From contig MQRK01253783.1 in NCBI GenBank assembly GCA_001938485.1, forward strand, positions 4,482 to 58,994: DNA of 54,513 nucleotides. The letters run 5' to 3'. Made by a program: the position numbers. The stretch comes from Girardia tigrina. Taxonomy: Eukaryota. Shown one piece after another: positions 28,759 to 31,700 of this stretch (position 1 is its first letter; every line of letters begins with the position of its first letter).

Positions 28759-31700
28759 CATCGATAAACATAAAAAATTGCGCGGTTACTAGTTTTCAGC
28801 ATTTTATCTAAAATCTTTTAAAAGCTAAGATTACTATAATTTGTTAAGCTTGTTCATAAACAAATATATTTTGTAAAAAAAATCCTTGTTTTTAATTCCC
28901 TTTGAACATTTATTAATATAACCTCAATATCCCTACAATAGCAATATTTTTTTTAAAGATTGCAACAATAATAATACATTTTGCAAAAGTTTAAAGTGAG
29001 ATTGGAAGTCATTTTGAAAAGTTCGAAAAACCCCATAGTACCAGTTTTAGTGTTGTAAGAATTAATAAAGAAATATTTTTATAAAATAAAAATGTTTTTG
29101 GAAGATGCGGTCAAATGACCGTTTCCCAAAAGTCCAAAATTAATTATTACGAAATTTTTTATTTTAAAATAATACAATAAATTGAAAATTAGCTGTTATG
29201 AGGGATACTATTTTGAATAGTATATTTTGAAATATCTGTTAATTTAAATTTATTGTATTTTAAAATAATAAATTTCGTAATTGATATCGGTCTTTTGGGA
29301 TTCGGTCATTTAACACAAATCCGTTTTTTAGATACAATAAAAATTAATATCCAGGAATAATTAACTAAATTTTTCATTTTTTTATTAATAATAAATTTTA
29401 AATTAACAAAAAAAGCAAAACAAAACGTTTGTTTAAATAATCATAAAATAATTTTTAAATTCAAAAAAAATATGGAATTCGATAATTCAAGTATGTTTTG
29501 ATTGTTTTACATTTTTTAATAACTGGTGTGACGAAACTCTAGATTTTGAAGCGAATTTTGATTTTGTAAAACATTTGATTGATAAATGCAGCTTTTTTTC
29601 AATTGATACGGAATTGACGGGACTGCATGAAGGCAGCGTTAATTTCTATGACACACATGAAATGCGCTATAAATTCCTTAGAGACAATTCCATGCAGTAC
29701 ACAATCACCCAAATGGGTATTTGTTTCTTCACGTACTGCATGGAAAAGAAACGGTTTTTTATTGATTAATTACAAAAAAATAATTAATATTTTAATTATT
29801 TAATTAATTTAATAAATATTTAAATTATTTTAAATAAATTAATTAAAATAATAATTATTTAAATATAATAATTATTTAATTAAATTAATATTTTTTCTTG
29901 TTTAATTAAATTAATTATAATTTTAATTGTTTTATTAAAATAATTAATATTTTACTTATTTGAGTAAATTATTTAATAATATTTATTAGTTTCCAATGTC
30001 ATCCAATTAATTTCCAATTACGACCATTTTCCTATGAAAAGGGAAGAGACAGTATTTCTATCGACCCAAAAACAATCGAATTTCTAAACAAAAGTGGATT
30101 TAATTTTAGTCGATGTTTTAATGACGGTTTGTTTTATTAAACAATTTTTTGTGTACTTGGTTATCGGTCCTGTATTACTAATTTTCTTTTACCCAATGAT
30201 GTTTACGGCACCACAAAAATGAACAATAATAAAAATTTCAATATACAATAAACAATTTCCAGTATAGTTCCGTAGCCGCCCAAGTAAATATAAAAATATA
30301 ACAATAAATAAAATATTATAAGCACACCAGGAAGAATATTTATTTAAAATTTTTAAAAGTAACCGAATAGTAATCTAAAATAAATACATTGTTTACGCGA
30401 TCACGAACTTCTCTGACTTATTTTATGTATATTTTTTAATTAAATTTGTTTTTTACCATTTTTAAAAAACTTTTTCTTATTTTTGTATAGAAAAATTAAC
30501 TGAAAATAATTTAAAAAACAGAAAAAATTATTCAATTTTAAGTATAGCAAAATTTAAATACAGTCACCCACACTATTGTACCATTTCTATATTGTGCCCC
30601 CTCATACATCGCCATTTTTTAAAAATTGTACATATTTTAATAATTAAAAAAAACACTTACGAATTGACGAATTTTAAACTGAAATACTACACTGTCTAAT
30701 AAAAATTTTAAATTCTTTTGACATTAATTAATATTTTAAAAAATTTATTTGCGTAATGAATTTTTGATGGATTGTATCAATTTCTATCATTTCTAATTAA
30801 AAGCCAAGAAAGTGCAAAATTTTTATCTTCTATCCAACCATACCAATACCCGGACATTCATAAAACGCCAAGACTCCAAATGGAAAGAAGAAGAGAACTC
30901 TCTTAAACCGGTATGACCCATAACCAAATACAACAAACGATTTTTTTGTTTATTCTCCCTTAAAAACTAATTTTAGGAATACCTTTTTTGAGTCTTTCGA
31001 AATATGAAATGAAAAAGGCTTTAATTGAATCTGAAAAAGAGGGAAATCTCTCGAATATATCAAATGATATCGATCCTGCAAAATTTTCTCGTTTAACAGA
31101 TTTAATGTAAATTTTCTTTTTCTAGACGAATATTCGTCGGAGGGATACAGTTCTGTTTTATTCCTGAATTTATCTTTTTTTTACTTACACATTTTAAATG
31201 ATAATATGTATATTTATGTATTGATTTTATTTAGGTTTTGGTATACATATAATTAATTGCACATCTAATATTTAACAATTATTTTTAACATCAATATCAG
31301 TTCTTAAATCATTTGTTAAATGAGAACAAATTGCATCCAATTCAAGTGTCATTGCATGAAATAAAAAAATATTCCAATATGATGGAAATCAACTATTGTA
31401 AACTGTTATTATTAATATTTTCATAAAATCAGAATAAAAATCCGTTAAATTATAAATTTTTAACTGAAAGAGATATTGACGTAATGAGCAAAGTATTTTA
31501 ATTGATCAAAAATCATTGAAACTGTGATAATGAAATGAGCATTCTTTCGCAATGAAGGTCGATAACAGAACTGTAACCGCCGGATTTATTGTTCCATTAA
31601 TTTTTATATCGATTTGACGACAGAAATCGGTGCGAAAAATTTCTCGAAAACGACTCTGAGCAGGAATTTACAATCGATATTCCCTCGAAATCATTCGATA

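What the first reader, a model, noticed from the sequence alone, without database searches (positions are those of the whole stretch)
29990..31106. PARN paralogs are nearly identical except exons 3-4, which include the predicted dimer interface
Seen: exon 1-intron 1-exon 2 (282 nt) differ at one base, and introns 12 and 13 are identical. Exon 3 differs at 16 of ~46 aa (EMGKGDFNLNPQ..NNFDYNR vs EKGRDSISIDPK..SGFNFSR) and exon 4 at 12 of ~44 aa, with no indels or stops. The long introns hold different TEs, so the duplication is not recent. Known: in human PARN the FVCQSSSIDFL..GFDFNKVF segment forms the homodimer interface and borders the RNA pocket. Inference: gene conversion homogenises most exons while exons 3-4 stay distinct, possibly giving two deadenylases/trimmers with different dimerisation or substrate specificity.
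Basis: partly seen in the sequence, partly recalled or inferred. Interest (0 to 1): 0.72.

Follow-up and report, generated by a model that had tools for sequence, protein, structure and literature searches.

The report
Tandem PARN genes, patchy gene conversion
Two neighbouring copies of a poly(A)-trimming enzyme gene have been repeatedly copied onto each other in patches, and the oldest unpatched stretch happens to encode the surface where the enzyme pairs up, which is suggestive but not yet evidence of a new function.

Summary
The window holds two intact, head-to-tail PARN-like genes (A 2431-21567, B 29472-46772). Each has 17 GT-AG exons and a 1617-nt CDS.
- ATG to the end of exon 2 is 282 nt with 1 difference.
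- Introns 12 and 13 are identical.
- Exon 3 differs at 16 of 45 whole codons and exon 4 at 12 of 42, with no indels or stops.

The title overstates the pattern. Exons 14-16 form a second diverged island.

Silent sites form a mosaic of 0-1%, 4-6%, 12% and 18-20% divergence (chi2 73.8, df 6). This fits patchy interlocus gene conversion in an old duplicate.

Exon 3 aligns to human PARN residues about 83-129. That span holds every dimer-interface residue named in the papers I read. The copies differ at 4 of the 7 that can be aligned.

Silent divergence in exons 3-4 is high too (dS 0.29). dN/dS there is 0.70 against 0.48 elsewhere, which is not significantly different. Selection holding the exons apart is therefore not shown.

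The joined-exon protein was neither searched nor folded.

The parts
2431..21567 (+). PARN-like gene copy A: 17 exons, 1617-nt CDS, start codon to stop codon. Intron 16 holds all three N runs of the window.
   Evidence: Exon model: all 16 introns GT-AG, no in-frame stop. Exon-wise CAF1 PF04857 hits. Exons collinear with a PARN profile. N runs.
29472..46772 (+). PARN-like gene copy B: 17 exons of the same lengths as in A, 1617-nt CDS.
   Evidence: Exon 2 has its best solved-structure match in human PARN 2a1r (E 3.6e-7) against CNOT7 (E 0.58).
2431..2712 (+). Copy A side of near-identical tract T1 (exon 1, intron 1, exon 2). Its partner is B 29472-29753.
   Evidence: 1 difference in 282 nt. 0 of about 90 silent sites differ, against 11.5% in the rest of the gene (P 1.6e-5).
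29472..29753 (+). Copy B side of tract T1.
2713..3048 (+). Copy A intron 2: an AT-rich degenerate tandem-repeat array, 336 nt against 236 nt in B (29754-29989).
   Evidence: TRF arrays. 35/228 aligned sites differ, with 9 gaps.
3049..3185 (+). Copy A exon 3. It corresponds to human PARN residues about 83-129 (dimer-interface strand and hydrophobic core).
   Evidence: Profile positions 80-126. Profile position plus 3 gives the PARN residue number. CAF1 hit E 3.8e-6.
3235..3364 (+). Copy A exon 4. By position it follows PARN residue about 130. The family profile barely recognises it.
29990..30126 (+). Copy B exon 3, the start of the finding. It is the more derived of the two exon-3 versions.
   Evidence: 29/137 nt and 16/45 codons differ from A. 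Against outgroup P0001, A keeps the outgroup residue at 7 of the 16 differing sites, B at 1 and neither at 8.
30147..30937 (.). MITE-like insertion inside copy B intron 3 (850 nt against 49 nt in A). It has 23-nt inverted ends.
   Evidence: Inverted pair I2, 83% complementary. Intron lengths.
30977..31106 (+). Copy B exon 4, the end of the finding.
   Evidence: 20/130 nt and 12/42 codons differ from A; dS 0.16, dN 0.18.
13152..13319 (+). Copy A intron 12, exon 13 and intron 13: the core of the second near-identical tract. Its partner is B 41385-41552.
   Evidence: Introns 0/50 and 0/45, exon 13 1/73. The tract from exon 12 to intron 13 has 1 of 130 silent sites different (P 1.6e-6).
13320..13666 (+). 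Copy A exons 14-16 with introns 14-15: the second diverged island (region of the PARN-type RNA-binding domain). Its partner is B 41553-41905.
   Evidence: 29 of 148 silent sites differ. Exons 15-16 differ at 12/61 codons. Weak PF08675 hits on exon 15 (E 0.033 in A, 0.0013 in B).

Best explanation
These are two functional-looking tandem paralogs of the deadenylase PARN in an AT-rich, transposon-rich genome that is not human. The duplication is old. Since then, short patches of one copy have been copied onto the other at different times (interlocus gene conversion), mostly centred on exons.

The result is a mosaic. Exons 1-2 and exons 12-13 were homogenised most recently. Exons 5-8 and exon 17 were homogenised earlier, and exons 9-11 earlier still. 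The two oldest patches are exons 3-4 and exons 14-16.

Exons 3-4 are two small exons, each in a homology block of about 250 nt. They are flanked by a length-variable AT-rich repeat array (intron 2), an insertion of about 790 nt (intron 3 of B) and an unrelated intron-4 interior. At 18% nucleotide difference, further conversion there is probably disfavoured.

Their amino-acid differences accumulated at a rate that cannot be told from neutral, more of them on the B lineage. They fall largely in the strand and hydrophobic motif that form the PARN homodimer interface.

Shown: the gene models, the counts, the silent-site mosaic, and the mapping to PARN residues. Inferred: conversion as the cause, the order of events, the barrier to conversion, and any effect on dimerisation.
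For: Gene models:
- Both models are intact, each with 17 exons, all GT-AG, of equal lengths.
- The catalytic D, E, D, H and D positions are present in both copies in the exon-wise profile alignments (numbering).

Extent of homology:
- A/B homology is confined to the gene body. It starts about 50 nt before the ATG, and after the stop only a 67%-identical 134-nt trace remains. This argues against a falsely duplicated haplotype block.

Silent-site mismatch by tract:
- T1 (exons 1-2): 0/90.5
- T2 (around exons 3-4): 76/419
- T3 (exons 5-8): 20/339
- T4 (exons 9-11): 49/406
- T5 (exons 12-13): 1/130
- T6 (exons 14-16): 29/148
- T7 (exon 17): 4/107.5
- Heterogeneity: chi2 73.8, df 6, P 7e-14

Age of the duplication:
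- Collinear intron stretches farther from the exons (intron 4 end, intron 8 start, intron 11 start) align at only about 64-69% identity. Even the exon 3-4 island is therefore younger than those intron stretches.
- A repeat shared by both intron 16 copies is 5-10% diverged.

Exons 3-4:
- Synonymous mismatch is 12/50, against 64/369 in the flanking introns (P 0.25, so consistent with each other). Nd:Sd is 37:12, against 28:14 elsewhere (P 0.36).

Interface mapping.
Against: - The tracts were delimited after looking at the data, so the P values are optimistic.
- Only two sequences are available. There is no orthologue, no population sample and no reads. Conversion is inferred from pattern alone.
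- Short homology blocks did not stop conversion elsewhere. T1 lies in a block of about 340-580 nt and the exon 17 block is about 195 nt. The 'barrier' argument for exons 3-4 is therefore weak.
- Differences inside exon 3 cluster in two patches (12 in 24 nt, 9 in 16 nt; scan P 0.016-0.05). This is somewhat more than uniform neutral decay predicts and leaves room for selection or complex mutation.
- Synonymous divergence of the other exons (14/257) is lower than that of their introns (89/964, P 0.06). Conversion alone does not explain this.
Confidence: 0.6

Rival explanations
1. Selection keeps exons 3-4 distinct. After duplication of a homodimeric enzyme, the pairing strand was recoded so that A and B prefer their own kind, or form a specific heterodimer. 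Conversion events that erase this difference are removed by selection. The result is two deadenylases with separate partners or substrates.
For: - Exon 3 spans every interface residue named in the passages read from PMC3516499 and PMC10493513.
- The copies differ at the equivalents of Phe106, Cys108, Gln109 and Phe123, and perhaps Arg99 (Lys against Arg, alignment ambiguous).
- Of the 14 exon-3 positions where at least 15 of 20 homologues share a residue, the copies differ at 6.
- Differences cluster in the strand (codons 17-27) and in the motif around Phe123 (codons 35-40).
- B is the more derived copy, 7 to 1 against the outgroup.
- The upstream regions are unrelated, so regulation probably differs as well.
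- Loss or retention of paralog heteromers is a recognised issue after duplication of homomers (PMC6711710 and PMC9548406, listing and abstract starts only).
Against: - dN/dS is 0.70, not above 1. It is not different from the rest of the gene (P 0.36) or from neutrality (P 0.22).
- Silent sites and flanking introns are equally old.
- Interface enrichment is not significant (P 0.23).
- Exon 4 and exons 14-16 are diverged too, without any link to the interface.
- The 7:1 polarity gives P 0.07 two-sided, with a single distant outgroup that is only 40-53% identical.
Confidence: 0.2
2. Assembly artefact. The near-identical tracts (exons 1-2, exons 12-13), or the whole second copy, arise from collapse, consensus polishing across paralogs, or misjoined haplotypes.
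For: - Three N runs and a palindrome-like inverted duplication lie in intron 16 of copy A. This part of the assembly is therefore not clean.
- Identity tracts of 90-280 nt are the size that read-based polishing could homogenise.
Against: - Homology is limited to the gene body, and the flanks are unrelated. This is not what a duplicated haplotype block looks like.
- The introns carry different insertions, and exon 3 differs at 35% of codons. That is far beyond allelic variation in most species.
- The N runs lie far from the tracts in question.
Confidence: 0.08
3. Import from a third locus. Exons 3-4 of one copy (probably B) were overwritten by ectopic conversion from a more distant PARN paralog outside the window. 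This would create a divergence island in an otherwise young or well-homogenised pair.
For: - B exon 3 is the odd one out against the outgroup.
- The island has fairly sharp edges and extends into the flanking introns.
Against: - No third exon-3-like sequence exists in the window. A profile search of all + strand frames found exon 3 only twice.
- Intron stretches farther from the exons are older than the island, so no outside donor is needed.
- The idea cannot be tested further, because no collection holding this genome was open.
Confidence: 0.07
4. Copy B is on its way to becoming a pseudogene or a non-dimerising, inactive variant. The exon 3-4 changes are simple decay.
For: - dN/dS in exons 3-4 cannot be told from 1.
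- B replaces family-conserved residues at the equivalents of Phe106, Asp122 and Asn124.
Against: - B keeps an open 538-codon frame, all 32 splice dinucleotides and all five catalytic positions.
- A also departs from the family at an invariant position: the Phe123 equivalent is Tyr, a residue seen in 0 of 20 homologues.
- The rest of the gene shows purifying selection (Sd 14 of 42 changes, P 0.024).
Confidence: 0.05

Closest known systems
Poly(A)-specific ribonuclease PARN (solved structures: human 2a1r/2a1s, mouse 3d45)
   Same: - CAF1-type DEDDh nuclease domain with all five catalytic positions.
- Exons collinear with a PARN profile that matches 3d45 at E 1e-191 and 2a1r at E 5e-164.
- Weak exon-wise matches to the R3H region and to the PARN RNA-binding domain.
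   Different: - Only about 40% identical to vertebrate PARN in exon 2.
- Both copies lack family-conserved residues at the equivalents of Phe93, Gln109 and Lys125.
- The loop around Arg99 is two residues shorter.
- 538 codons.
- Present as a tandem pair.
Concerted evolution of tandem duplicates with islands that stay distinct. The human red/green opsin genes and RHD/RHCE are the examples I recall; no call supports these names.
   Same: Conversion homogenises most of the gene, introns included. A few exons keep paralog-specific residues.
   Different: In those cases the distinct sites have a demonstrated function and selection has been shown. Here the island's silent sites are as diverged as its replacement sites, and no function has been tested.
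Fate of paralogs derived from homomeric proteins: heteromers of paralogs and interface divergence (PMC6711710 and PMC9548406, listing and abstract starts only)
   Same: A homodimeric ancestor was duplicated, and the interface-coding segment is the most diverged part.
   Different: No interaction data exist. The divergence may be a passive result of tract age.
PNLDC1 and TOE1, the other PARN-like CAF1 nucleases (names from PMC10493513 and my own knowledge)
   Same: CAF1 nuclease core.
   Different: - The best matches here are to PARN itself.
- Exon 15 weakly matches the PARN-type RNA-binding domain.
- The C-terminus is a basic tail rather than a hydrophobic anchor.
- No direct comparison with PNLDC1 or TOE1 was possible, because no named hit of either came back.

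Membership tests
PARN (poly(A)-specific ribonuclease) | CAF1-family nuclease domain | tested here: met
   Exon-wise PF04857 hits above the 24.2-bit cut-off, copy A / copy B: exon 2 61.9 / 62.2 bits, exon 3 26.8 / 27.4 bits, exon 8 33.7 / 31.1 bits.
PARN (poly(A)-specific ribonuclease) | DEDDh catalytic residues (human Asp28, Glu30, Asp292, His377, Asp382; numbering from the PMC3516499 passage) | tested here: met
   All five are present in both copies in the exon 2, exon 8 and exon 12 alignments to the homologue profile. The profile is tied to the PARN structures.
PARN (poly(A)-specific ribonuclease) | Closer to PARN than to CAF1/POP2/CNOT7 | tested here: met
   Exon 2 matches 2a1r at E 3.6e-7 and 3d45 at E 1.6e-6, against CNOT7 at E 0.58-0.73.
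PARN (poly(A)-specific ribonuclease) | R3H domain inserted in the nuclease domain | tested here: inconclusive
   Exon 5 aligns to profile positions 173-202, inside the span that matches the PARN R3H structure 1ug8 (161-236). The score is only 9.3-9.6 bits. No Pfam R3H hit at E <= 1. Only exon-by-exon searches were made.
PARN (poly(A)-specific ribonuclease) | C-terminal PARN-type RNA-binding (RRM) domain, PF08675 | tested here: inconclusive
   Exon 15 alone scores E 0.0013 (B) and 0.033 (A), 19.1 and 14.7 bits, below the 27.9-bit cut-off. It aligns to profile positions 429-453.
PARN (poly(A)-specific ribonuclease) | Homodimer through the beta5 strand and a Phe/Ile core (human Phe93, Phe106, Cys108, Ile113, Phe123, Phe127; Arg99 acting on the partner's site) | tested here: inconclusive
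   The segment is present in exon 3 of both copies. The Ile113 and Phe127 equivalents are kept in both. The Phe93 equivalent is Arg in both. The Phe106, Cys108 and Phe123 equivalents differ between the copies. Dimerisation itself cannot be tested here.
Interlocus gene conversion (concerted evolution) | Tracts of near-identity that include silent sites and are bounded by diverged sequence | tested here: met
   T1 has 0/90.5 silent sites different and T5 has 1/130, against 11-12% elsewhere. The flanks are 11% (5' flank) and 15% (intron 2) mismatched.
Interlocus gene conversion (concerted evolution) | Significant heterogeneity of silent divergence along the pair | tested here: met
   chi2 73.8, df 6, P 7e-14 over 7 tracts. 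The tracts were chosen after inspection.
Interlocus gene conversion (concerted evolution) | Paralogs of one species group together against orthologues for the converted parts only | not testable with these tools
   No related genome was reachable. The nearest protein found, P0001, is 55% identical in exon 2 and ends at the end of exon 3. Two word-based protein searches found nothing.
Adaptive interface divergence between paralogs | Replacement rate raised over the silent rate (dN/dS > 1, or clearly above the rest of the gene) | tested here: not met
   Exons 3-4 have dN/dS 0.70 against 0.48 elsewhere. Fisher P 0.36, and against neutrality P 0.22.
Adaptive interface divergence between paralogs | Changed pairing preference (AA and BB against AB) | not testable with these tools
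The structure tool folds single chains.

The most novel reading that the evidence does not exclude
The exon-3 island is protected from conversion by selection, because the two PARN copies have recoded the antiparallel pairing strand and the motif around the Phe123 equivalent. They therefore no longer co-dimerise. In PARN a residue of one subunit reaches into the partner's active site. Such insulation would create two independently regulated deadenylases, each with its own promoter, from one homodimeric ancestor. It would be a natural example of interface recoding that survives inside an otherwise concertedly evolving gene pair.
Probability: 0.17. Interest if true: 0.6.

Novelty: new member of a known kind. 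Interest (0 to 1): 0.35.

Why it matters
Mosaic concerted evolution of tandem duplicates is well known, and PARN is a well-studied enzyme. As it stands, this is one more instance.

It would matter if the interface island proved to be held apart by selection. PARN is active as a homodimer, with one subunit contributing to the other's active site (PMC3516499 and PMC10493513 passages). A pair of paralogs that differ mainly in the pairing strand would then be a compact natural system for asking how duplicated homomers escape each other.

For annotation, the practical point is that both copies look intact and should both be kept. Short-read mapping will confuse them in exons 1-2, 7, 9-10 and 12-13.

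Tried and rejected
(1) Word-based protein searches with exon 2 of B and exon 3 of A, longer proteins only, found nothing. The library scan with exon 2 gave 85 proteins at E <= 0.001, the best only 55% identical.

(2) Single-exon searches of solved structures with B exon 3 and B exon 4 did not return PARN. The best hits were an unrelated mannanase (E 0.041) and designed repeat proteins (E > 1). The mapping was therefore done through a profile of 20 of the 85 homologues.

(3) Compensated frameshift. A gapped nucleotide alignment of exon 3 scores 12 points better than the ungapped one, and part of B's strand reads like A's in another frame. However, 12-17% of random substitution sets do as well (one search timed out first). 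I dropped the idea.

(4) False haplotype duplication was rejected, because the flanks are unrelated.

(5) There is no third exon-3-like copy in the window.

(6) The window holds no Rfam family and no tRNA.

(7) The primary structure paper on human PARN (Wu et al. 2005, recalled) was not held under the id I tried. The interface residues come from passages in two later papers that cite it.

(8) A literature search for tandem PARN paralogs with gene conversion listed 12 of 673 papers, none about PARN duplicates. The word-start term also matches unrelated words, so this is weak evidence of absence.

(9) Exon 4 could not be polarised, because the only near outgroup ends at the end of exon 3.
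Full report
**What the window is.** The window is 54,513 bases with 22-38% G+C in 2-kb bins. It has three N runs: 15144-15193, 19471-19520 and 19854-19858. I did not fill them or look them up. I do not take it for human. It is very AT-rich, most introns of the gene studied are 44-65 nt long, and its PARN exon 2 is only about 40% identical to human PARN. A self-comparison shows two collinear + strand copies of one gene, A at about 2380-21573 and B at about 29423-46778.

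**Gene models.** I used several lines of evidence:
- open frames conserved between the copies;
- exon-wise Pfam hits (CAF1 PF04857 on exons 2, 3 and 8; weak PF08675 on exon 15);
- a profile of unnamed homologues;
- pairwise alignments.

From these I derived a 17-exon model for each copy. All 16 introns in both copies are GT-AG. All 17 exon lengths are equal between the copies. Each CDS is 1617 nt with no internal stop. The model rests on sequence alone, and no transcript data were available. The joined step (translating, searching or folding the spliced protein) was left out. Domain calls for R3H and the RNA-binding domain therefore stay weak, and no structure was predicted.

**Identity of the gene.**
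- Exon 2 alone finds human PARN 2a1r (E 3.6e-7) and mouse 3d45 (E 1.6e-6), well ahead of CNOT7 (E about 0.6).
- A library scan with exon 2 gave 85 proteins at E <= 0.001, the best 55% identical.
- A profile of 20 of these 85 (those 480-620 aa long, alignment A7) matches mouse PARN at E 1e-191 and human PARN at E 5e-164. It also matches the separate PARN R3H and RRM structures.
- The exons of both copies align to that profile in order.
- The five catalytic positions are present in both copies (residue numbers from the PMC3516499 passage).

**The observation.** The finding's span 29990-31106 runs from the first base of B exon 3 to the last base of B exon 4.
- 282 nt from the ATG to the end of exon 2, with one difference;
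- intron 1 0/52, intron 12 0/50, intron 13 0/45;
- exon 3 29/137 nt and 16/45 whole codons;
- exon 4 20/130 nt and 12/42 whole codons;
- no indels or stops.

The split codons bordering exons 3 and 4 are the same in both copies. The long introns differ completely in their interiors. They carry different remains of Tc1/mariner-, pogo- and other transposons.

The title, however, overstates the pattern. Exons 14-16 are a second island (26/248 nt). Exons 15-16 differ at 12/61 codons, and two split codons there differ as well. In all, 94/1617 nt and 56/538 codons differ. Exons 3-4 hold 49 of these nucleotide differences and 28 of the codon differences.

**The mosaic.** I counted mismatches in aligned intron sequence and Nei-Gojobori synonymous differences in whole codons, then pooled the silent sites by tract.

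| Tract | Region | Silent mismatches / sites | Share |
|---|---|---|---|
| T1 | exon 1 - intron 1 - exon 2 | 0/90.5 | 0% |
| T2 | intron 2 - exon 3 - intron 3 - exon 4 - start of intron 4 | 76/419 | 18% |
| T3 | end of intron 4 to start of intron 8 | 20/339 | 6% |
| T4 | end of intron 8 to start of intron 11 | 49/406 | 12% |
| T5 | exon 12 to intron 13 | 1/130 | 1% |
| T6 | exon 14 to exon 16 | 29/148 | 20% |
| T7 | intron 16 ends and exon 17 | 4/107.5 | 4% |

- Heterogeneity is strong (chi2 73.8, df 6, P 7e-14). I set the tract limits after seeing the data, so the P value is optimistic.
- Collinear intron stretches farther from the exons (intron 4 end, intron 8 start, intron 11 start) align at only about 64-69% identity, and the 3' flank aligns at 67%.
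- Homology stops about 50 nt before the ATG.

This is the picture of an old duplication whose exons and nearby intron sequence have been re-homogenised in patches at different times. Flanks that are unrelated also argue against a falsely duplicated haplotype block.

**Is the exon 3-4 island special?**
- Its synonymous divergence is high as well (dS 0.29; exon 3 0.44, exon 4 0.16). This is in line with its flanking introns (12/50 against 64/369, P 0.25).
- dN/dS is 0.70 (exon 3 0.49, exon 4 1.14) against 0.48 for the other 15 exons. The difference is not significant (Nd:Sd 37:12 against 28:14, P 0.36).
- Exons 3-4 cannot be told from neutral change (P 0.22), whereas the other exons show purifying selection (P 0.024).
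- The excess of amino-acid differences is therefore explained mainly by the greater age of the tract, plus weak constraint.
- Two points keep selection open. First, the differences within exon 3 cluster in two patches, codons 17-27 and 35-40 (12 mismatches in 24 nt, 9 in 16 nt; scan P 0.016-0.05). Second, against the only near outgroup (P0001, 116 aa, ending exactly at the end of exon 3), A keeps the outgroup residue at 7 of the 16 differing sites, B at 1 and neither at 8 (two-sided P 0.07).

**Mapping to the dimer interface.**
- In the profile-to-structure alignment, profile position plus 3 equals the PARN residue number across this region. The numbers reproduce the published Arg99, Gln109, Ile113, Phe123 and Phe127.
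- Exon 3 covers profile positions 80-126, that is residues about 83-129.
- Passages in PMC3516499 state that strand beta5 pairs antiparallel with its counterpart. They state that Phe93, Phe106, Cys108, Ile113, Phe123 and Phe127 form the hydrophobic contact, that Gln109 sits in that strand, and that Arg99 reaches into the partner's active site. The last two points come from that paper's in silico work.
- A passage in PMC10493513 states that substituting Ile113, Phe123 or Phe127 reduces or abolishes activity.
- All these residues fall in exon 3.
- The copies are alike at the equivalents of Phe93 (Arg in both), Ile113 and Phe127.
- They differ at the equivalents of Phe106 (Phe/Ile), Cys108 (Leu/Ile), Gln109 (Asn/Asp) and Phe123 (Tyr/Phe).
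- The Arg99 loop is two residues shorter and cannot be aligned with confidence (Lys in A against Arg in B at one candidate position).
- Of the 14 exon-3 positions where at least 15 of the 20 homologues agree, the copies differ at 6. A keeps the family residue at 3 of these, B at 1, and neither at 2.
- Enrichment at interface positions (4/7 against 12/38) is not significant (P 0.23).
- The profile barely recognises exon 4 (scores below 0). By position it follows residue 130. I found no statement linking that part to the interface.

An effect on dimerisation is inference.

**Why this tract escaped.**
- Exon 3 and exon 4 each sit in a homology block of about 250 nt.
- These blocks are bounded by an AT-rich degenerate tandem array of different length in the two copies (intron 2, 336 against 236 nt).
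- A 791-nt insertion with 23-nt inverted ends lies in B intron 3.
- The intron-4 interior is unrelated.
- This may hinder conversion, and the 18% mismatch now reached would hinder it further.
- The argument is weak, because equally short blocks elsewhere (exons 1-2, exon 17) were converted.

**Rivals.** These are selection for interface insulation, assembly artefact, import from a third locus, and decay of copy B. They are weighed in their own sections. None is excluded. The first is the interesting one.

**What stayed unchecked.**
- No genome of this or a related species could be searched.
- There are therefore no orthologues, no third-locus test and no reads.
Table S1 of PMC3516499, on the distribution of PARN across species, might bear on how common PARN duplicates are.
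- The primary structure paper was not held under the id I tried.
- A search for published tandem PARN paralogs listed nothing relevant, which is weak evidence.

**The virus-like stretch (description only).**
- Between the two genes lies an LTR-retroelement-like stretch, 22565-26246. Its two direct terminal repeats (22565-23052 and 25747-26246) are 91% alike.
- Its coding region runs on the - strand (23051-25873). It has hits to a zinc knuckle and to reverse transcriptase with RNase H, and a weak hit to the integrase C-terminal SH3.
- That region is in five stop-to-stop pieces of 75 aa or more. I count two in-frame stops and at least two changes of frame, one of which may be the usual gag/pol shift.
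- No protease or integrase core was detected, and the internal part is only about 2.7 kb, so parts are probably deleted.
- A second, truncated reverse-transcriptase/RNase H piece and an integrase-like piece lie in opposite orientations at 339-1834.
- Nothing was aligned across frames, joined or repaired.

**Verdict.** The gene-conversion reading is supported. The link to the dimer interface holds at the level of sequence mapping. The claim that exons 3-4 are kept distinct for a functional reason is not supported by the rates measured here. This is a new instance of a known kind of evolution, of moderate interest.

Noticed in passing
window 22565-26246: LTR-retroelement-like stretch in the spacer between the two PARN genes. 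The LTR pair is 91% alike. The - strand coding region has zinc-knuckle and RT/RNase H hits and a weak integrase-C SH3 hit. The frames are broken (five pieces, two in-frame stops, at least two frame changes). Protease and integrase core were not detected. Described only.
   Followed up: partly
window 339-1834: Truncated RT/RNase H piece on the - strand and an integrase-like piece on the + strand, next to each other at the window's start. 1427-1823 is 72% like 23041-23437 in inverted orientation.
   Followed up: partly
window 26589-28003: pogo/Tc5-like DNA transposon remains on the + strand (HTH, Tc5 DNA-binding and DDE_1 hits in three reading-frame pieces), just upstream of copy B.
   Followed up: no
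window 18114-20738: Palindrome-like inverted duplication in copy A intron 16, with arms 95-100% alike where they align. It encloses two of the three N runs and a DDE_3 fragment. It could be a foldback element or an assembly artefact.
   Followed up: no
window 13870-16355 and 45134-45742: A repeat shared by intron 16 of both copies, 5-10% diverged. In copy A it is interrupted by an insertion of about 1.3 kb (14074-15385) that carries a DDE_3 fragment and the first N run. It serves as a further neutral yardstick for the pair.
   Followed up: partly
window 42063-43068: A 360-nt inverted repeat (94.7%) in copy B intron 16. An ORF there gives a weak GIY-YIG hit (E 0.0066). It may be a Penelope-like or foldback element.
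   Followed up: no
window 6530-6898 and 46000-46367: A repeat family, 96% alike, in non-corresponding introns (A intron 8, B intron 16). A shorter relative lies at 53998-54061.
   Followed up: no
window 2380-2430 and 29422-29471; upstream of both: A/B homology stops about 50 nt before the start codons, and farther upstream the sequences are unrelated. The two copies probably have different promoters.
   Followed up: partly
window 32602-35277: Stretch of copy B intron 8 with higher G+C. It has several ORFs of 115-184 aa without clear family hits; the best is a weak zf-RVT hit (E 0.003). It may be a non-LTR retrotransposon remnant.
   Followed up: partly
window 48011-48780: Overlapping + strand ORFs downstream of copy B, rich in charged residues, without family hits at E <= 0.001. 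Unknown whether this is a gene or part of a repeat.
   Followed up: no
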